Part shown: positions 17,401-63,669 of the stretch, piece after piece
Position numbering within the stretch: the first letter of the stretch is position 1
Layout: every line of letters begins with the position of its first letter
Source: an uncultured Solirubrobacterales bacterium
GTDB taxonomy: Bacteria; Actinomycetota; Thermoleophilia; Solirubrobacterales; Solirubrobacteraceae
Length of the DNA stretch: 64,000 nt
Direction of reading: 5' to 3'
Assembly (NCBI GenBank): GCA_963799735.1
Contig: CAWCYP010000042.1
Coordinates: forward strand, 1,384-65,383
Notes under the pieces: model-generated
Told to the model about the DNA's origin: nothing
The model's database searches: none
What the model saw: only the letters and a program-made list of their open reading frames with translations
Translations under genes and position numbers: made by a program

Positions 17401-17487
17401 TAGTCTACATTCTACATACCTATTGGACAATGTGTGACCCACCTCACACAACCCCGTCCCCACGACCAGCTAGCCTCCTACGACGTT

Positions 17488-17670
17488 CGACCTGCCGAGT
17501 CGCGTCCGTGGATGGATGCGAGCGGGGGACCCACTGCCGGATCGCCTCTAGGACGAGGCTGAGCCGGATGGGGCGAATCGGCCGCTGATGCGGCTGTAAC
17601 GCCCGGTAGATGCGCGCTCGTTGCGCGCGGACGCCGCTCGTGAGCCCGACAGCTAACCCCGTAGGCGGAC
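17488..17670 (+). ncRNA. Cyclic di-AMP (ydaO/yuaA) riboswitch
   Basis: Ordered blocks GCCGAGTC...GGGGGACCCA...GGGGCGAATC...CCCGACAGCTAACCCCGTAGGC upstream of a cell-wall lytic gene. Confidence 0.85.
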
Positions 17671-17690
17671 ACCAAGGAGGCATCCCCTCG

Positions 17691-41951: not shown

Positions 41952-42412
41952 CTAGTCGGAGCTCGGGAAGACCATCTTCAGGCGCAGTCGCTCGGCCAGC
42001 AGGTCGGCGCAAACCTCGTCGGGGAGCTTGACGACCCGCCTTTCGACCCCCCAAGCGTCAAGGGCCTCTGCGAGCCACCCGACCACGCCGTCTGCGGCCT
42101 CCCGATCGCAGAACGCGATGATGAGCTTGCTCGCGGGCCGGCTTCGCCCCAGCGTGATGAGCTTCAACGCGTCGCCCATGATCTTGCGGCGCTGACCTCC
42201 CTTCGTCCCCCCTGGTGGGCGAATATCTCCACGAGAACAGACTCGTCCGGCCCGACGCCGTCCACGTCCACATGGGCACCGCCATCTAGCGACAACCGCT
42301 GTGGCGTCAAGTCAACGTCTAGCTCCTTGGACAGCCGTTGGCGGATCAGTTTCTCGGCTTTTTCGTGCGCGATAGCTCTGCCCAGATGCATGGGGTTATC
42401 TGGGGCGCTCAT
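41952..42412 (-). CDS. Hypothetical PD-(D/E)XK-like protein, copy A (frameshift near 42205)
   Basis: VDVDGVGPDESVLVEIFAHQG...K..GDALKL; paralogue at 58434-58898. Confidence 0.75.
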
Positions 42413-42531
42413 CGCCACAGCCTCCTTGGTATGTCGTGTTTCGGCGTCATGAGCATCCGTCCTATGCGACTTCGTCAAGTTCGCTGCCTAGGTTGCGATC
42501 CGAATAGATGGTGGGTCTAATCAGCCGAGGC

Positions 42532-50280: not shown

Positions 50281-50499
50281 TGTTGGCTTTGATCATTGCG
50301 CATTCGCAGTGAGCGTCGCATCGGAAGTACTTCACGATCGCGGGCTGAACATGCGTCCACGCCTCTTCAGATCGCTATTTGATGCGGTAGTCTTCGGCGC
50401 CAAGATCGGCAACGATCGGCGGCGTCGGGTGTCCACGAACAGATAGATGGGGAGGCCATGTTTCGCATCCATAGACAGGCGCGTACGGGTGGAAGAGGG

Positions 50500-52562
50500 A
50501 TGACGACGATGCGCCCGGCGCTTCGCCGCAGCGCGCTGGTCGGTGCGCTCGCCGCCACCGCCGTGCTCGCGTTCGCGGCGCTCGCAACCTCGGCGTTGGC
50601 CTCGCCGATCGCCCTCGACGCCCCGGACAATGGAACTGCGCCGTTGGTCGCGTATGACCCGGTGTCGCAGACGACATACGTTGCCTGGGCGAATCCCCAA
50701 GGCCCCGGTGTTGACCTGTGCGTCCTGCCGGCGGGCGCCACCGGCTGTGAGGGCGGCGCACGGTGCTGCTCGAAGACTCGAAATTCCCAGGCTACTCGGA
50801 CACCAGCGGCGAACCGGGGCTTGGGGGCTCGTCGTCCTGCCGGGCGGCGAGGTAGTGGTGATCGGCACGCCCGTCAGCACCGGCAGCGTCGCGTGGGAGT
50901 CGCCCGGCGACGGCTCGGCCTTCCTGTCAAGTAGCCATGGGCTGCAGAACGGCGGCAAATTCATCAGCCCAGTCTCGCTCTTCTACACGTTCGGCAACGC
51001 CGTCGCGCTCAGCAACACCGACGTCGGCCTGCTGGACGACTACGGCAACTTCTTCAGCGACTCGCCGTTCGCCGGCCCCGAGTCTCCCGCGATCTCGAGC
51101 CCCAACAGCAACCCGAGCGGTCAATACCCGCGGAAGGGCCTCGACACCAACGGACCGGAGATCGCCGCCGAGCCCGCGCCCGCGCCCGCACCCGCAGGCA
51201 CCGACATCGTGGTCGGCGTCGGATCAAACAACAGCGCCGCCCAGCTCACGCCCACGGGCTGCCTCAACTACGCCGCCACCGGCTACGGCGTCTCCGCCGG
51301 TGAGGTGGACGGAACCTCCAAAGCTGGTGGCACCCTCAACGGCGAGGGTCTGCCGAATTATCAACTCCTCGCCTGCTCCGCTGAGGAACCAGTCCTTGCC
51401 AGCGGCGGTCAGAGTGGGATCGGTGTGCTCGAGGAGGAGGGCTCCGCCATCTCCGGGGCCGGGCCGGACTGGCAGATGGATTACCGCCCGTTCATCGCGA
51501 CAGCCACCGGGGGCTCGTTCGGCCTCCCAGTTCGAGCTGGCCGATATCACCGGCGAAGTCCTGGATGGTGTCGACGCGCTTGACGTATCCGAGGACTCCG
51601 GCACCGGTGTATACGCCTTCTGGGAAGACGGCAACACGGTGCTCGATTACAGCTCCAACGGAGGCGCCAACTGGGGTGCACCCGTGCTCACCCCGATCCC
51701 CTACACAGCCCACGGCGTGATCACCGGCATCGGTGGCGGCAGTGCCGAGATCGCCTACGTCGACAATCCCGGCACTGGCAATCAAGTCTTCCTGCAGGCC
51801 GTCAGTTACCAACAGCTAGAGCTCAAACCGACCGCAATCTCGACCAGCCAGACCTCCGGCACAACAAGCGGAGCAAACATAACGATCCCTGCGGGCACGG
51901 TTGGTGAGACCGACAAAGCGACGATCAGCGGTGTGAACGCCGCCAGCGCAACCGGCACGGCCACCTACACGCTGTACGCGTCGTCCTCGTGCTCAGGAGC
52001 CCCCGTGTTCCAGTCCAGCGGGCCGGTGACCGGCGGAGCCGCAGCCTCGTCGACTCCGGTCACGAGCGCGCTCGCACCCGGTACCTACTACTGGCTGGCG
52101 GCGTACAGCGGGGACTCTGCGAATATGCCTAGCGCGAGCGCCTGCGGCTCAGAGGTGCTGACGGTCGCCGCAGTCGCGCCCACGTCGCTGCTCACGATCC
52201 CCAAGCAGACCGATGACGTTACGAGCAAGGGCAACATGTCCATCGCGTTGGACTGCGCCGGCGCGAAGTGCAGCGGCAGCCTGACGCTGGTCGCGAAGGT
52301 CAAGAAGACGACGGGCAAAGGCAAAAAAAAGAAAACAAAAACGGTGGTCGAGACGATCGGCAACGTCTCGTTCTCTTCGCTCGCCCTGGGTACGGACACG
52401 ATCGCGATGAAGCTCAACAGTACGGGCCTGAAGCTGCTCGAGCACGACCACTACAAGCTGAGCAGCACCGGGAGCGCGACGTACCTCTCCGGCACGGTGT
52501 TCAAGACCACCACGGGCGATGTGGCGCTCAAGGGGCACAAGCCGAAAAAGAAGAAAAAATAG
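50500..52562 (+). CDS. Large secreted Ser/Thr/Gly-rich protein with Ig-like region and Lys-rich C-terminus (frameshifted)
   Basis: Signal peptide; PGTYYWLAAYSGD; KGKKKKTK and terminal KKKKK. Confidence 0.7.
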
Positions 52563-52570
52563 CGCTTGCC

Positions 52571-52634
52571 CTGACGGAGCTCCCGGGATTCCCGCAGGCT
52601 CAATGGGGGAGGGAGGGGAGAGAGAGGAGCGCAT
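52571..52634 (+). repeat. Intergenic repeat R1 (left part of the unit)
   Basis: CTGACGGAGCTCCCGGGATTCCCGCAGGCTCAATGGGGGAGGGAGGGGAGAGAGAGGAGCGCAT; matches R4 and R2. Confidence 0.85.
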
Positions 52635-52699
52635 CAAGGGCGGCGAGCCCGTGATCCGAGGCACCCGCATCGATATACTCTGACTGCAGAAAGCAAAAC

Positions 52700-53540
52700 A
52701 TGATGGTGGCTTCCGCAGATCCGATATCGACCCGGGCGGCCGGGATCAGCGCGGCTCGCCGGCAGCGTCTGGAGCGCTTGCACCGCTCGTTCAGCGCCCC
52801 GTTCACGATCGCCGAAGCCGCCAAGGTGTTGGACGTCGCGCCTGCGGCGGCCGGGCGCGAGCTCGGCTACCTGAGCCGCCGGGGATGGCTGACACGGGTC
52901 AGGCGCGGCCTCTACCTGCCGGTACCGCTGGAGGCTCCTCGCTCCGGGGAGTGGACCGAGGACCCCTGGATCGTGGCGAGCAAGGCGTTCGCACCCTGTT
53001 ACATCGGGGGTTGGAGCGCGTGCGAGCATTGGGATTCTCACAGAGCAGGTGTTCCGCGACGTCGTGGTCGTCACCTCACGCGCGGTCAGGCAGCGTCATC
53101 ACGAGTTGCAGGGAATGCCGTTCCTCGTTACGGTCCGCTCCGCCGAGGCGATGTTCGGCACCCGCAACGTGTGGAGGCGCGACGTGCGCGTGGCGGTGTC
53201 CGATCCATCCCGCACGATCATCGACGTCCTCGACGACCCCGGTCTCGGCGGTGGCATCCGGCACGTGACCGCGGTGCTTGAGGAGTACCTGCGAAGCGAG
53301 CACCGCGATGATGAGCTGCTGATCGAGTACGGCGACAGGCTGGGGAACAGGACCGTCTTCAAGCGACTCGGCTGGTTGCTTGAGCTGCTCGGCATCGACG
53401 GTCCGCTGAGGGATGCGTGCTCAACCCGGCGCAGCGCCGGGTTGAGCAAGCTCGATCCCACCGTCTCGGGAACGGGTCGCATCGTCCGGCGCTGGGGGCT
53501 GCGCATGAACGTCGATCTGCAGAGCCGTGGTGAGGACTGA
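52700..53540 (+). CDS. Type IV TA antitoxin AbiEi-like (frameshift near 53035)
   Basis: N-terminal wHTH ...GWLTRVRRGLY; CYIGGWSA.EHW; SDPSRTIID; KRLGWLLE. Confidence 0.88.
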
Positions 53541-54761
53541 TGATCTCGCGCGCGGACATTGTGGGACGCGTTCAAGAATGGGGTCTGGCCGAGCACGTGG
53601 TGGAGAAGGACTACGTCCTCGGCTGGGTCCTGTGGGGTATCGGCTCCGGACGCGACGCTCGGCGAGCACTGGATCTTCAAGGGCGGGACGTGTCTGAAGA
53701 AGTGCTACGTCGAGACCTACCGCTTCTCCGAGGACCTCGACTTCACGATCCTGCCGGGAGGTCCGCTCGCCTCCGATGAGGTCATTCCGCTGCTGCGGCG
53801 TGTTCTGCAGCGCGTCGGTGAGGAGTCGGGCTTGGACTTCACCGTCGGCGAGCCGCGCCTCGAGAACACGTCCCTCGGGCACATCCGCCGAGGGCCGCAT
53901 CTACTACCGCGGCCCGCGCAACGCTCCCGGAGCGACGAGCGTCAAACTCGATCTCGGCGCAGACGAGACGGTCATCCGGCCAACCGTGCCCCGAACGATC
54001 GCCCACCCCTACCCCGATGCGCTGCCAGCGACCGGCACGGCGCGCTGCTACGCGCTTTGAGGAGGTCTTCGCCGAGAAGTTGCGAGCGATGGCGCAACGC
54101 GGACGCCCACGCGACCTGTACGACATCGTCAACCTGTTCCGGCGCGAGGAGCTGCGACCACATGCAGCCCTGATACAGGAAGTGCTCGTCGGCGAAGTGC
54201 GAGGCCAAGGGCATCCCCTCCCGACCGCCGAGACGATCACCAGCGCGCCGCACCGTAACGAGCTCGAATCGGAGTGGGCGAACATGCTCGGCCACCAGCT
54301 CCCCGCGCTGCCGCCGATCGAGCAGTTCATCGGCGAACTCCCAGCCCTGTTCGCCTGGCTGCACGGCGAAACGCAGTCTCCAGCCCCTACCGGCAATCCC
54401 GACCGAGCCCGACGAGGACGACACGTGGACGCCACCGGCGACCGTGGCGATCTGGGGTCAGAGCGTTCCGCTTGAGCCCGTGCGCTTCGCAGCCACAAAC
54501 CACCTTTGCGTCGACCTCACCTACGACGGATCGGTCCACCGCATACAGCCATACTCGTTGCGACGAACTCGTGCCGGCGACCTCATCCTCCACGCAGTAC
54601 GATCGGACGCCGACGAGCATCGCGCCTACCAGGTCGAGCGAATGCAGCGCGTACAGATCACGACCGAGCCCTTCCGACCGGTGCACGCAATCGAGCTCTC
54701 GCCATCCGGGCCGCTGGCAACGCAAACTGCGCGCAGCCGCGCTGACCACGGCGCAACCTGA
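53540..54761 (+). CDS. AbiEii/AbiGii nucleotidyltransferase toxin with C-terminal WYL-like domain (frameshifted)
   Basis: VEKDY, FKGGT, RFSEDLDF, AEKLRA, RPRDLYD; C-terminus VDLTYDG..RIQPYSL...RAYQVERM. Confidence 0.85.
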
Positions 54762-54788
54762 ACCTGTCTATTGGCGTTGGCCCGGGCC

Positions 54789-54876
54789 GAGCCTGCCGGC
54801 AGGCAGGCTCAATGGGGGAGGGGAGGGGGAGAGAGAGGAGCGCATGCGAGGCTGAGTCGGGGTTCGCAGGGCTGGG
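54789..54876 (+). repeat. Intergenic repeat R2
   Basis: Perfect hairpin GAGCCTGCC-GGCA-GGCAGGCTC, then AATGGGGGAG purine tract, then GCGCATGCGAGGCTGAGTCGGGGTTCGCAGGGCTGGG. Confidence 0.85.
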
Positions 54877-54895
54877 AACTCATCGTCGAGGCGTC

Positions 54896-55654
54896 TTATG
54901 ACAATGAGGTGATCGGCGGTGCGGGTTGCAGCGTCAGGCGCCAGTCGGCGGCGACCTTGACCAGCGCTTCGATGACAATGAGGTGATCGGCGGTGCGGGT
55001 TGCAGCGTCAGGCGCCAGTCGGCGGCGACCTTGACCAGCGCTTCGGGTGCCGGGTCGGTCAGCGGGATCGGGTCATCGACGGCTTCCAGGTTGGCGCGGC
55101 CCTCGAACAGTGCGAAGCAGGGCAGGCCGTCGAGTCGCGACGGAAGCGGATTCCAGCGCATCCAAGCTCGTCGTAAGAGTCGGCGGCGATCACGCGGGTC
55201 ATCGAGCGTCGCCTGCGCGTGACCTCCGTGATGTCGAGATGCTTCATCCCGTGAGCGGCAAGCAGGGCCGCGTGGCGCTGCTCCATCTGGTGGCGCACTG
55301 TCGGGTCGGTGAGGTCGAGGATTCGGCTTGGGCGTTGATGGCGCAGCAGACGAGTACGTTCTGTCGCCGCCAGTCGGCGGTGATCTCCTGCACCGGTAGG
55401 TCGGCCAGCGCGTCGGTGCCGAACGTTGCGAGATAGTTGGCGACCTCCCGGGTGTCTCGTCGCAGGTCGGCTAGTACCTCACGCAGAGCGGTTTCGGACT
55501 CGATCGCGCAGTAGATCGTGCGGAATCGCTGTTCGGGATCGTCGAAGCGATGGTTCCACGAGCACCGCTCCCGAGGTAGGAATCCGATCGGGTCGGATAC
55601 GTGACCAACTCGCCAGCGGACATCGCCGGGCGCTTGGAGTCCCTTGCTGCTCAC
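54896..55654 (-). CDS. RES-domain toxin (frameshifted)
   Basis: WRVG, HRFDDP, TIYCA...TALREVLA, GIRF.SR, ALFEGR. Confidence 0.85.
54898..55045. repeat. Perfect 74-bp tandem duplication at the 3' end of the RES gene
   Basis: 54898-54971 is identical to 54972-55045. Confidence 0.9.
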
Positions 55655-56041
55655 ACGTCTGCGCTGGCGAACTGCCGCGCCGTGCGAACGACGGGGACGA
55701 AGTCCTCGGGTGTCTTGCCGTTGCGCAGCAGCCCGATCGGAGCTTGGTCGCCGAGACGGCTGTTGGTTCGAACAGCCACGCCTTGGCGGTTTCGGCGTCG
55801 TAGCAGTCGCGGATCATGCGCACGACCTTATAGCCCTCCCGCAGCCGCAGCTCGACCTGCGTGGTCGGTGTCGGCCCGCCGGGCTTGCGGTAGCGGCCGA
55901 TCTGTTGACATCGTTGAGGCCGGCGAGGTAGGCCGTCATCCGCTGCCCCAGAGCATCCTGCAGGAGGCCGGCGATCGTGGCGATCGGCAGCTTGGTCGCA
56001 TCGTCTTCGAGCTTCTCGGCGGCGCGTAGAACGAGTGGCAT
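55651..56041 (-). CDS. Xre/MbcA/ParS-type antitoxin (frameshifted)
   Basis: LGQRMTAYLAG; AKAWLF..N.RL.DQAPI.LLR; GTGA overlap with the RES gene. Confidence 0.8.
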
Positions 56042-56136
56042 GGTGGTTCTCCTTTCTTTGTGGTCAGGATACTACCATCCGCACACTCTAAAACAACCCG
56101 CTAGAACATACTCTCATCCTGCTCGATCACGGCTGC

Positions 56137-56202
56137 GCGCATGCGAGGCAGAGCTGGGGTTCGCAGGGCTACTGGCGGCCTGGCGCCCACGACGATCGGA
56201 GG
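56137..56202 (+). repeat. Intergenic repeat R3 (right part of the unit, ending at the ohr RBS)
   Basis: GCGCATGCGAGGCAGAGCTGGGGTTCGCAGGGCT...GGCCTGGCGCCCACGACGATCGGAGG. Confidence 0.85.
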
Positions 56203-56206
56203 CAAC

Positions 56207-56706
56207 ATGGCGAAGGTGCTTTACACAGCGGAGGCGACCGTCACCGGCGGGCGGGCCGAAGGTCACGGCCGCACCAGCGATGGGGTGTTGGATGTCGAGC
56301 TTCGCAGCCCGCCGGAGCTGGGCGGCGAAGGTGGTGGGACCAACCCCGAGCAGCTGTTCGCGATCGGGTACGCGGCCTGCTTCGAGAGCGCGTCGGCGTG
56401 GTGGGGCGTCGCGAGCGGGCCGAGGTCGGAGACGTGTCGATCGACAGCCGCGTCAGCCTGTTGCCGATCGAGGGCGGAGGCTTCGGGCTCGCCGTGGCGC
56501 TCGACGTGAGCCTGCCGCAGATCGATGACCCCGAGCAGGCCGTCCGGATCGTCGCCGCCGCGCACAAGGTCTGCCCGTACTCGAACGCGACGCGGGGCAA
56601 CATCGAGGTGCAGCTGACCGCCAACGGGCAGGCGGTTGATCGACCGGACTATGGCGAGAATTGGCTCTTTTCCATTCACGAGCACCCGCCGGCGCGAAGA
56701 AGCTGA
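56207..56706 (+). CDS. ohr: Organic hydroperoxide resistance protein (frameshift near 56390)
   Basis: [29 protein letters not shown]. Confidence 0.93.
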
Positions 56707-56835
56707 CGGAGCTCCCCCGGGATTCCTGCCGGCTCGACGGGAGAGGGGAGAGGGAGAGAGAGAAGCGTATGCGAGGCTGGGCTGGGGTTTACAGGACTGG
56801 GCTTGTGGCCCGGCGCCCACGACGACGATCGGAGG
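56703..56835 (+). repeat. Intergenic repeat R4 (longest copy)
   Basis: Contains the R1 left block, purine tract, R2/R3 middle block and the R3 GGCGCCCACGACGA..TCGGAGG tail. Confidence 0.85.
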
Positions 56836-57220
56836 ATGCGGCCTGATCTTCGAGAGCGCGCTCGGCGTACCGCGCGGGCAGAAGCGCATCCTCTCATTGA
56901 GCGTCCGCTCATGTACCGGCTGCGCCACGGACGGGTGGCGTGGCGCAACGTGGCTGGAGACCGAGGCCGCGCGGTTCTGGCTCTGTGCCGGCGCGCAGCG
57001 CGAGGAGGGCTCTGGCGAGGACGCCTACGAGATCTTCGCCGCACTGCATCGAGCCGAACGACTGCTACCCGATGACGATGACCGGCCGCGTGATGAGCTT
57101 GAGCGCATTGCGACTCAGGCAACCGACGGGCGCTTCGTCGAGGAGCGACTCCGAGACGTCCTCTTCGGCTTGGTCCTGGACGCCGCGGAAGCGGAGCTGT
57201 GGGAGCCCCGCGCGGACTGA
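56836..57220 (+). pseudogene. Fragment of an unknown gene, possibly toxin-like
   Basis: YRLRHGRWRGATW...FWLCAG..REEGS..DAY; no intact N-terminus. Confidence 0.4.
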
Positions 57221-57555
57221 CCCTCGGGTGAGCCGGCGTGGTTCGAGGTCGCGCGCCTCGGCCTGCGCTGGCCGATCTTCGATCGGTCACCAAGCTGATC
57301 GGAAGAGACACCGCCGACTCGCTCGACATCGGCCTCACCGACACCCAACGAGTACGCGAGCGTGGACGTCTTGCCGCCCAGCAGCGCCTCCTGCGCGCGC
57401 TCCATGCGCTGTACAAACTGCTCGCGGTGATGTTCGACGTACTCGTCGACCGCGCGCTCGACAAGCTCAGCCTGCTTCAGGCCCGCCATCAACGCTGCGT
57501 AGCGGACCTTCTCCTTGGTGGCTTCATGGACCTTGATCGGGGACTGCGCTCGCAT
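57115..57555 (-). CDS. RHH/CopG-like DNA-binding protein (antitoxin-like; 3' end uncertain)
   Basis: SPIKVHEATKEKVRYAA...QAELVERAVDEY. Confidence 0.6.
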   Translation of the reverse strand: MRAQSPIKVHEATKEKVRYAALMAGLKQAELVERAVDEYVEHHREQFVQRMERAQEALLGGKTSTLAYSLGVGEADVERVGGVSSDQLGDRSKIGQRRPRRATSNHAGSPEGQSARGSHSSASAASRTKPKRTSRSRSSTKRPSVA

Positions 57556-58367: not shown

Positions 58368-58433
58368 GCGGGAAGTCGCATAGGACGGATGCTGATGACG
58401 CCGAAGCACGACATACCAGAGGAGGCTGTGGCG

Positions 58434-58898
58434 ATGAGCGCCCCAGACAACACGCAACAGAGCAGGTCTGACGCGCAGAAAGAAGCGGAGATACTGATTC
58501 GCAAACGGCTGTCCAAGAAGCTAGGCGTCGCCCTGACACCACAGCGGCTGTGGCTGGACGGGCCGGGGGGCGCCTATGTGGATGTGGACGGCGTCGGGCC
58601 GAACGAGTCGGTTCTTGTGGAGATATTCGCGCACCAGGGGCGACTGAAGGGAGGCCAGCGCCATAAGGTGACGGGCGACGCGTTGAAGCTCATCACGCTG
58701 GCGCGGACCCGACCCGCGAGCAAGCTCATTATCGCGCTCTGTGATCAAGCGGCCGCAGACGGCCTGGTCGGCTGGCTGGCGGAGGCCCTCGACGTCTGGG
58801 GGATCGACAGGCAGGTCGTCAAGCTCCCAGATGACGTTTGCGACGGTCTCAAGGCTGCGCAACTGCGCCAGAATATGGTCAACCCGAGCTCCGACTAG
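58434..58898 (+). CDS. Hypothetical PD-(D/E)XK-like protein, copy B
   Basis: VDVDGVGPNESVLVEIFAHQGRLKGGQRHK; GGAGG RBS. Confidence 0.8.
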   Translation: MSAPDNTQQSRSDAQKEAEILIRKRLSKKLGVALTPQRLWLDGPGGAYVDVDGVGPNESVLVEIFAHQGRLKGGQRHKVTGDALKLITLARTRPASKLIIALCDQAAADGLVGWLAEALDVWGIDRQVVKLPDDVCDGLKAAQLRQNMVNPSSD

Positions 58899-61983: not shown

Positions 61984-62156
61984 TCGACCCCGCAGAAGCC
62001 CGGCTCCGATTCTCGACCCAGTAATCGTGATGATCCCGCCGCCAAAGCGGAGCCCGTCCGAGTTGTGCCAGAGAGCAACCTGCCGGAGAATAGGCTTACG
62101 TCGCCCTTCCCGCTCCATCCAGTTGATCGTCTCGAAGAGAGCGATCAGTCCGTCAA

Positions 62157-62290
62157 GTGACGGCTTGCTCCAGCTTTTCGGCTGAGAGCCGGTCGTTTGG
62201 GCAGTGCTCGGTGCCGTAGCGGTGGCGCGTGAAGCAGGTGTAGTAGGTGTAGCGGCCGTTGCGCCCGTGGGCCGCGTTCCCGAAGGGGCC
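62157..62290 (-). pseudogene. Large serine recombinase zinc-ribbon fragment
   Basis: GNAAHGRNGRYTYYTCFTRHRYGTEHCPNDRLSAEKLEQAV. Confidence 0.75.
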
Positions 62291-62377
62291 GCGAAGTCCC
62301 CGTGGCAACGGGCGGAGATAGGTGCTCAGCCGCTCGGCGCTGAAGAGGCGCTCGAGGTGGCGTACTGGTCATGTCAT
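62287..62377 (-). pseudogene. N-terminal fragment of an Abi_2/AbiF-like protein
   Basis: LERLFSAERLSTYLR..CHGD. Confidence 0.6.
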
Positions 62378-63196: not shown

Positions 63197-63367
63197 CCTA
63201 GCACAGAAACTGACAAGTGGTTGTCAGTCTTCGTCGATGATCGACCAGCAGTACACCGGTATCTCGATGAGGAGCTTGGAGCGTGACCTCCGTCATCTTC
63301 GGGAAGCTGGCGTAATCGAGTTCGTTGGCGCTCCACAGACCGGCTTTTACCGCCGTAAGTGAGCGCT

Positions 63368-63436
63368 CTGCCACACTCTGCCACACTCTGCCAATCACCG
63401 CCATACACCGCCAATCACCGCCACACTCTGCCACTT
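63368..63436. repeat. Seven-unit array with exact 10-bp period
   Basis: CCACACTCTG x2, CCAATCACCG, CCATACACCG, CCAATCACCG, CCACACTCTG, CCACTT. Confidence 0.9.
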
Positions 63437-63669
63437 CCTCGGCCAGCAGCAGCTGGAACGTCTGGTGGGCGCAGCGCAGGTGCTGTTCGTGCTCTGCTCG
63501 CGGGGCGCGCTCGCCGTGGGAGAGCACTCCGGCGAAGAGTAGTTGGCACATGTGAAAGTAACTGGGCGGTCCGGCTCATACGACTGGGTGGGCACTGACC
63601 AACCGTCCCGACCCAAAGGCGTTCACGAAATTCTCACCTTGGAGGGGGAGAGAGAGCTAGGATACGGCT

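What the first reader, a model, noticed from the sequence alone, without database searches (positions are those of the whole stretch)
52571..56835. Candidate new cassette array: a mosaic ~130-bp repeat brackets TA and stress-gene modules
Seen: four co-oriented copies, R1 52571-52634, R2 54789-54876, R3 56137-56202 and R4 56703-56835. The unit is CTGACG-[GAGC...GCTC hairpin]-purine tract (GGGGAGGGAGGGGAGAGAGAG)-GCGCATGCGAGGC..GGGGTTCGCAGGGCT-..GGCGCCCACGACGATCGGAGG. Each interval holds exactly one module: AbiEi/AbiEii (R1-R2), Xre/RES on the opposite strand (R2-R3) and ohr (R3-R4), with a gene fragment after R4. R1, R2 and R4 begin within about 30 nt of the preceding stop codon. In R3 and R4 the unit ends in GGAGG just before an ATG. 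The hairpin keeps its GAGC/GCTC closure while its interior changes (perfect 9-bp stem in R2). A purine-tract remnant occurs at 63639-63656. Known: integron arrays have this one-site-per-cassette, TA-rich layout, but these repeats lack the attC RYYYAAC/GTTRRRY ends. Inference: recombination sites of an undescribed cassette-capture or tandem-integration system whose recombinase lies elsewhere.
Basis: partly seen in the sequence, partly recalled or inferred. Interest (0 to 1): 0.78.

Follow-up and report, generated by a model that had tools for sequence, protein, structure and literature searches.

The report
Duplicated ohr leader marks insertion hotspot
The four repeats are real, but they are overlapping pieces of one stretch of DNA in front of a peroxide-defence gene (ohr), likely left behind as toxin-antitoxin modules were inserted there, and likely not the sites of a dedicated gene-cassette enzyme; a different, far more widespread repeat array in the same genome and its relatives is the better candidate for a new cassette system.

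Summary
R1-R4 are real, co-oriented and found only at this locus. They are not four copies of one site: with the unit written A-B-C-D, R1 = A+B, R2 = B+C, R3 = C+D+ohr, R4 = A+B+C+D followed by a 31-bp vestige of a second ohr. C+D is the native ohr upstream spacer (homologue in relative G104). The AbiE block lies between two copies of B, the RES block between two copies of C; junctions are ragged, run into truncated genes through microhomologies, lack attC motifs and a conserved fold, and no intact recombinase is on the contig. The core pattern was found in 0 of 400 other genus genomes. The purine tract is a genome-wide motif, not a specific core. Best reading: an insertion hotspot where repair-type insertion duplicated parts of the ohr leader. 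The genome holds other such arrays with unrelated units; one, a 155-bp 'D element' with a sharp left end, forms arrays of up to about 11 copies around toxin-antitoxin and defence genes and matched in 32 of 401 genus genomes. That family, not R1-R4, is where a new cassette system may lie.

The parts
50458..52562 (+). Gene A, predicted secreted protein split by frameshifts; left neighbour of the hotspot
   Evidence: ORFs; no Pfam hit; 3' end homologues in relatives have varied downstream neighbours and no R repeat
52571..52634 (+). R1 = segments A+B, cut off after GCGCAT
   Evidence: 57 of 68 columns match R4; B block 41 of 43 columns match R2, no substitutions
52631..52678 (+). Internal fragment of a DUF433 antitoxin gene, joined to R1 through a microhomology of 3-4 nt
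   Evidence: 89-98% DNA matches in many relatives; the G011 homologue is PF04255; junction
52700..53540 (+). AbiEi antitoxin (frameshift at 53035 is corrected by a short-read contig)
   Evidence: PF13338, PF09407
53540..54761 (+). AbiEii toxin with WYL-like tail, frameshifted, ending earlier than the G023 homologue
   Evidence: PF08843, weak PF13280
54789..54876 (+). R2 = private 9-bp hairpin + segments B+C
   Evidence: 61 of 74 columns match R4; C block 31 of 34 match R3; fold z -4.5
54898..55045 (+). Perfect 74-bp tandem duplication at the 3' end of the RES gene
   Evidence: not checked against reads
54934..56041 (-). RES toxin and its upstream antitoxin-like ORF
   Evidence: PF08808; 78% DNA match over 1.14 kb in G019 and G009, which lack the R repeat
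56137..56202 (+). R3 = segments C+D, the intact ohr upstream spacer with ribosome-binding site
   Evidence: D shared with G104 (from 56182) and G068 (from 56180); C aligns to the G104 spacer
56208..56640 (+). ohr (OsmC/Ohr family); frame reads on to a stop inside R4
   Evidence: PF02566; 86% to G104; frameshift at 56392 corrected by contigs
56703..56835 (+). R4 = full unit A+B+C+D, 79-84% to the other pieces; leader of a decayed second ohr copy
56838..56868 (+). 31-bp internal fragment of ohr
   Evidence: matches the window's own ohr near 56373-56400 and ohr homologues at 87%
56858..57270 (+). 5'-truncated toxin-like gene with a ~155-bp internal deletion at 57105/57107
   Evidence: 85-89% to longer homologues in G022, G002, G009; toxin label is inference, no Pfam hit
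57115..57555 (-). Small antitoxin-like ORF paired with the toxin-like gene
   Evidence: only weak sub-threshold Pfam hits; conserved pair in G022, G002
62153..62308 (-). Zinc-ribbon remnant of a large serine recombinase, 5 kb downstream; link to the repeats not shown
   Evidence: PF13408 E 2e-9

Best explanation
R1-R4 are overlapping pieces of one spacer in front of ohr, and they are likely scars left when repair-type insertion of accessory DNA re-copied part of that spacer, with no dedicated recombinase. Shown: unit A-B-C-D; an older, diverged second copy of leader plus ohr (R4 and the ohr vestige); the AbiE block between two copies of B and the RES block between two copies of C; truncated genes at the junctions. 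Inferred order: an early tandem duplication of leader-ohr, then insertion of the RES block with a 34-bp duplication, then of the AbiE block with a 41-43-bp duplication, then erosion by small deletions. Inferred mechanism: a broken or stalled end is joined to incoming DNA at a few bases of microhomology (end-joining or polymerase template switching; Ku is present) and returns to the chromosome slightly upstream, or a circle carrying part of the spacer integrates by a single homologous crossover. Once flanked, a module could be looped out or moved by RecA; toxin-antitoxin pairs would persist because their loss is penalised. The purine tract is likely a by-product of local strand-biased mutation.
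For: Pairwise blocks: R1/R2 41 of 43 columns, 0 substitutions; R2/R3 31 of 34; R4 versus others 79-84%. D is shared with the two closest ohr homologues, and 25 of 32 columns of R2's C align to the 70 bp upstream in G104 (0 of 1000 shuffles; R4 7 of 1000). ohr vestige after R4. DUF433 fragment and 5'-truncated toxin-like gene at junctions with short shared bases. Core pattern in 0 of 400 other genus genomes at up to 3 mismatches and 0 in the metagenome collection. No tyrosine or intact serine recombinase on C42. One soil contig joins 52561 to 56182, skipping both blocks. The genome has other arrays whose units are unrelated gene edges: C1, C41, C49, C56, C57. In the D-element arrays only 9 of 56 intervals match another as a whole, while 35 of 56 share part with another genome. 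Ku in 5 of 5 genomes. The purine 10-mer: 61 observed against 1.2-7.5 expected; in a glycyl-tRNA synthetase-like gene it arises from six clustered C losses on one strand.
Against: R1 and R4 start at the same base, and R1's right end and R3's left end coincide at GCGCAT beside an 8-bp palindrome, as a fixed crossover would give. D-element copies have a sharp left end (32 of 50 start at model position 7 or less) behind many different upstream sequences, which random repair does not predict. The G104 alignment is short, was seen by eye before scoring, is weak for R3 (59 of 1000) and absent for G068; A+B have no homologue found elsewhere. The empty-site joint is one contig, depth 3, 41 letters on the short side, intervening sequence unknown. 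ComEC was found in 0 of 5 genomes, so how cargo DNA enters is unexplained. The assembly is 63.5% complete, so a recombinase may be missing. No insertion event was observed.
Confidence: 0.55

Rival explanations
1. The repeats are sites of a cassette-capture system whose recombinase acts in trans and cuts at or beside GCGCAT; later decay made the ends ragged.
For: Co-orientation, about one module per interval, coincident ends of R1/R4 and R1/R3. Sharp left end and 2-11 co-oriented copies in D-element arrays of many relatives. The genome encodes 5 tyrosine recombinases over cut-off and 4 large serine recombinases on other contigs.
Against: No core in all four copies; no conserved fold; private to one locus; unit is in part the ordinary ohr spacer; unrelated units make similar arrays in the same genome; no recombinase recurs beside D arrays among 127 and 110 ORFs scanned.
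Confidence: 0.2
2. Decayed tandem genomic islands: successive elements integrated at one site, lost their integrases and left attL/attR pieces (CIME-type accretion); the serine-recombinase remnant at 62.2 kb is a relic of one.
For: PF13408 remnant 5 kb downstream; island-like cargo from 52.6 to 63.5 kb; in the C49 array the copies end 3-13 nt past one gene's stop codon.
Against: Intervals are 0.5-2.2 kb with no integrase trace; the duplicated blocks differ between intervals (B versus C); no tRNA in the window; no R-like sequence at the far end of the island.
Confidence: 0.12
3. The repeats are relaxase nick sites (oriT-like), so that modules between two copies are mobilised and re-integrated by a TrwC-type relaxase.
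For: TrwC catalyses recombination and integration at minimal oriT copies (PMC3264647, passages); a TrwC/VirD4 region lies about 12 kb from one D array; some D copies end just after position 109-119.
Against: Neither R nor D profiles match the DNA around that trwC; TrwC found in 3 of 5 genomes and not in G000; D ends are multimodal.
Confidence: 0.05
4. A dispersed miniature element (REP/MITE) or a long-read assembly artefact.
For: The assembly has many indel errors.
Against: Only four hits genome-wide, all at this locus; copies differ by substitutions; short-read contigs reproduce R1 and its junction.
Confidence: 0.04

Closest known systems
Additive flexible genomic islands (integration hotspots with partial direct repeats; Alteromonas, PMC4898812, section 'Additive fGIs' read)
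   Same: Variable modules accumulate at one spot and some are marked by a partial direct repeat of the target sequence.
   Different: There the repeat is part of a tRNA/tmRNA gene; here it is the upstream spacer of a small accessory gene, the repeats are of unequal extent, and modules are 0.5-2 kb and often truncated.
Tandem accretion of ICE/IME and CIMEs (PMC5704250, passages)
   Same: Tandem, co-oriented att-like remnants around decayed cargo without an integrase.
   Different: No constant att core, no target-gene 3' end or tRNA, no integrase-bearing member found.
IS26 translocatable-unit arrays (PMC4196232, abstract)
   Same: Arrays of unique segments separated by directly oriented copies of one sequence.
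   Different: The repeat here encodes no transposase and its copies are ragged fragments.
Integron cassette arrays (attC structure from PMC5371416, passages)
   Same: One repeat per module, often close behind a stop codon, toxin-antitoxin-rich.
   Different: No attC end motifs, no folded site, no integrase on the contig, cargo with truncated ends.

Membership tests
   none on either strand of the four repeat regions
Integron / attC array | Each site folds into an imperfect single-strand hairpin | tested here: not met
   R1, R3, R4 fold no better than shuffles on either strand; only R2 has a private stem
Integron / attC array | IntI tyrosine recombinase with attI | tested here: inconclusive
   no PF00589 match on C42; five over cut-off on other contigs, not typed; genome 63.5% complete; IntegronFinder not available
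Tandem islands / CIME accretion | Constant att core shared by all junctions | tested here: not met
   R1 and R3 overlap by 6 nt; duplicated blocks differ between intervals
Tandem islands / CIME accretion | Target is a tRNA or the 3' end of a conserved gene | tested here: not met
   no tRNA/tmRNA in the window; repeat is the 5' spacer of ohr
Tandem islands / CIME accretion | Cognate integrase in one member or in trans | tested here: inconclusive
   only a zinc-ribbon remnant at 62153-62308
Additive hotspot with partial direct repeats | Variable accessory modules at one place among relatives | tested here: met
   29 relatives have varied sequence after gene A, none with this cargo; one contig skips both blocks
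Additive hotspot with partial direct repeats | Inserted module bracketed by a partial copy of resident sequence | tested here: met
   B brackets AbiE, C brackets RES; C+D is resident ohr spacer
REP / MITE | Dispersed multi-copy element | tested here: not met
   4 profile hits, all at this locus
IS26-type translocatable-unit array | Repeat is a transposase-encoding IS | tested here: not met
   133-bp non-coding unit; no transposase family in the ORFs scanned
pdif / Xer module array | 28-bp XerC/XerD site with two 11-bp arms | not tested
   no explicit scan made
Relaxase (TrwC) oriT recombination | Repeat matches the oriT beside the relaxase gene | tested here: inconclusive
   no match around one trwC, whose upstream region contains low-complexity sequence; other trwC loci not examined
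Known structured RNA | Rfam family match | tested here: not met
   only a c-di-AMP riboswitch at 17.5 kb in the window; nothing at the repeats at E up to 1

The most novel reading that the evidence does not exclude
Solirubrobacterales of this genus run an undescribed gene-cassette accretion system in which an unstructured repeat built from a small gene's leader serves as the handle for capturing and reshuffling toxin-antitoxin and defence genes, with the enzyme acting in trans or supplied by host repair. R1-R4 would be a young, private instance; the 155-bp D element, with its sharp left end and arrays of up to about 11 copies in several genomes, would be the established form.
Probability: 0.27. 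Interest if true: 0.75.

Novelty: new variant of a known kind. Interest (0 to 1): 0.42.

Why it matters
How defence and toxin-antitoxin genes pile up at hotspots that have no integrase is poorly resolved. This locus preserves the individual steps (older duplication, two insertions each with a 34-43-bp duplication of resident DNA, microhomology junctions), and it warns that co-oriented repeats between toxin-antitoxin modules need not be recombination sites. The D-element arrays give a replicated, testable case across dozens of genomes of an abundant soil lineage; a fixed-end capture mechanism there would be a new route of gene acquisition.

Tried and rejected
Genus search with R4: 8 of 150 other genomes hit; the five inspected and the four short hits were an AG microsatellite in an unrelated repeat or chance coding matches, and were dropped. 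R2 against three D-array genomes: 0 of 3. Metagenome 22-mer: one hit, a chance match at a start codon. Purine tract as recombination core or replichore-polar motif: rejected, it occurs on both strands of the longest contig and in coding DNA, and D copies with and without it are alignable. Promoter/terminator scan: nothing above shuffles. D element as structured RNA: z about 0, weak consensus fold, no Rfam hit; as a gene tail: no long in-frame upstream ORF in common. The 101-aa protein: no Pfam hit, low-confidence model (pLDDT 60), best fold Z 4.5, Atlas scores 0.78, no informative fusion, no viral relative: function not found. Natural transformation: ComEC 0 of 5. Other joints have short sides or lie in conserved genes and were not used.
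Full report
Setting. The window is C42:1384-65383 of a 2.77-Mb, 69-contig assembly, 63.5% complete. It has many single-base frameshifts; short-read contigs from a public soil run correct three in this region, so frameshifts alone are not read as decay. Homologues of a protein from relatives' arrays are labelled Solirubrobacteraceae/Solirubrobacterales, which places the lineage by inference.

The observation. Four co-oriented repeats lie at the stated coordinates. A profile built from them finds these four and nothing else below E 2 in the genome. Contigs of run X2 and X1 reproduce 52313-52618 and 52604-52807. Pfam confirms AbiEi, AbiEii, RES and OsmC/Ohr.

Anatomy. Only R4 is full length. Writing it A-B-C-D, R1 is A+B, R2 is B+C, R3 is C+D and runs into ohr. 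Block B is shared by R1 and R2 at 41 of 43 columns with no substitution; block C by R2 and R3 at 31 of 34; R4 is 79-84% like each piece. So there are two lineages: an old copy (R4) and a second copy now spread over R1-R3, in which the AbiE block sits between two B copies and the RES block between two C copies. After R4 come 31 bp of internal ohr sequence, so R4 is the leader of a decayed second ohr. That vestige is joined to a toxin-like gene lacking its 5' end and about 155 internal bases compared with G022, G002 and G009. R1 is joined through 3-4 shared bases to about 45 bp from the middle of a DUF433 gene. The modules therefore have ragged, not precise, borders.

What the unit is. Of 150 other genus genomes searched with R3+ohr, 91 matched; the two closest, G104 (86%) and G068 (84%), match from 56182 and 56180, so D is native ohr leader. 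The 70 bp further upstream in G104 align to R2's C block at 25 of 32 columns (0 of 1000 shuffles; R4 7, R3 59 of 1000; nothing in G068); I saw this by eye before scoring it. No homologue of A+B was found. One X1 contig joins 52561 to 56182, skipping both toxin-antitoxin blocks (depth 3, 41 letters on the short side, intervening letters unknown): weak support for an allele without them. Gene A in G320 and ohr in G104 each lie just upstream of the same phosphatase-like gene, whose counterpart in this genome is on C69 with other neighbours, so both are mobile accessory genes.

Distribution. The C-block pattern, with up to 3 mismatches, matched in 0 of 400 other genus genomes and 0 metagenome stretches. 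In 29 relatives with gene A's 3' end, what follows varies and has no R repeat. The RES module has 78% homologues in G019 and G009 without it.

Structure and motifs. Only R2 folds better than shuffles; its 9-bp stem is private and may be a fold-back event (inference). No attC motifs, no Rfam match, no tRNA. The purine 10-mer occurs 61 times against 1.2-7.5 expected, with G-runs before the GA repeat in 53 tracts and after in 12. In a glycyl-tRNA synthetase-like gene it results from six clustered C-to-A/T changes on one strand relative to five relatives. It is thus a lineage-wide mutational product more likely than a recombination core.

Enzymes. No tyrosine recombinase or intact large serine recombinase is on C42 or C1; a serine-recombinase zinc-ribbon remnant lies at 62153-62308. 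Ku was found in 5 of 5 genomes, ComEC in 0 of 5, TrwC in 3 of 5 and not in this one.

The wider pattern. A self-comparison of the genome gave 14 sets of three or more co-oriented repeats. Of the six contigs inspected, C39 and C50 are gene paralogues or protein repeats; C41, C49, C56 and C57, like C1 and the window, have partial copies of a gene edge or spacer between accessory genes (ATPases, Fic proteins, toxin-antitoxin pairs), each with an unrelated unit. The C1 array has 10-12 copies over 12.5 kb around Xre/RES, PIN, Mrr, AbiE, DprA and others. Its unit derives from a 155-bp 'D element' fused to the leader and 5' part of a 101-aa gene of unknown function (725 homologues) that is single-copy in most of 77 loci, often behind what reads as a type III restriction gene. 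The D element matched in 32 of 401 genus genomes, this one included, with only two candidates scored per genome. Arrays of 4-11 copies were seen in G209, G027, G140, G237, G007, G299, G046 and G367. Its left end is sharp (32 of 50 hits start at model position 7 or less; 37 of 85 BLAST hits in the first 10 nt), its right end ragged and multimodal. Mrr, AbiE, DprA and a dienelactone hydrolase recur in different orders, but only 9 of 56 intervals match another whole, while 35 share part with another genome. No recombinase recurs next to these arrays among 127 ORFs and 110 of 155 called ORFs; one broken tyrosine integrase with TrwC/VirD4 lies near a G299 array, and assorted DDE transposases elsewhere. 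The window's cargo is not part of that pool beyond a 144-bp AbiEii match.

Mechanism. Best supported (0.55): insertion by end-joining or template switching, or single-crossover integration of a circle, each time re-copying part of the resident spacer, followed by erosion. The anatomy is shown; the chemistry and order are inferred. A trans-acting site-specific system (0.2) is kept alive by coincident ends (R1/R4 left ends, R1/R3 at GCGCAT) and by the sharp D-element end. Decayed tandem islands (0.12), relaxase sites (0.05) and artefact or MITE (0.04) follow.

Literature. Seen: PMC4898812 (passages and the section on additive islands), PMC5704250, PMC5371416 and PMC3264647 (passages), PMC4196232 (abstract and outline). 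Eight full-text searches listed no paper describing such arrays in this lineage; the library lacks most subscription papers and no supplements were read. Template switching, end-joining and addiction by toxin-antitoxin pairs are cited from general knowledge.

Verdict. Real but locally ordinary: scars of repeated insertion at the ohr leader, a variant of additive hotspots. Interest 0.42, carried largely by the D-element arrays.

Noticed in passing
G000:C1:24001-36491 (L019:6000-18500); also L220-L231, L032, L034-L036: D-element arrays: 155-bp unstructured repeat with a sharp left end, fused to the leader of a 101-aa gene, separating toxin-antitoxin, restriction, DprA and other modules in varying order; matched in 32 of 401 genus genomes; no shared recombinase found. 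Best candidate for a new cassette system.
   Followed up: partly
L036:11853-12155 (-), protein P0001: 101-aa protein family (725 homologues) without Pfam, fold or Atlas assignment, usually single-copy and often behind a type III restriction-like gene; sequence right after its stop codon is highly variable.
   Followed up: partly
G000:C49:66374-74670, C41:3325-13278, C56:62151-65495, C57:19299-22239: Further arrays of co-oriented partial repeats with unrelated units (3' end of a hypothetical gene, 5' part of a DUF5131-like gene, short spacers) around ATPase, Fic and toxin-antitoxin genes.
   Followed up: partly
G000:C57 near 80426 (L234) and about 60 other places: Short patches of strand-biased C loss that create GGAGAGAGAG tracts even inside core genes; cause unknown, possibly damage to exposed single strands.
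   Followed up: partly
window 62153-62308 (-): Remnant of a large serine recombinase (PF13408).
   Followed up: partly
window 41952-42473 and 58372-58898: Two inverted 83%-identical copies of a small nuclease-like ORF without a Pfam hit, 16 kb apart.
   Followed up: no
G000:C40:53509-53888: Second, more deleted relic of the toxin-like gene pair that follows R4, behind another AbiEii-like gene.
   Followed up: partly
window 17483-17682 (+): c-di-AMP riboswitch (RF00379).
   Followed up: no
window 63360-63433: Tandem 10-bp repeats between the MerR-like gene and the purine tract.
   Followed up: no
L045 and L046 flanks (G019, G009): The RES-module homologues are flanked by a different repeat with internal TGAGAC units, resembling transposon ends.
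   Followed up: no
L002, L011, L014, L016, L017 (G089): A dispersed ~250-bp repeat containing an AG microsatellite, also in G099 and G150; identity not determined.
   Followed up: no
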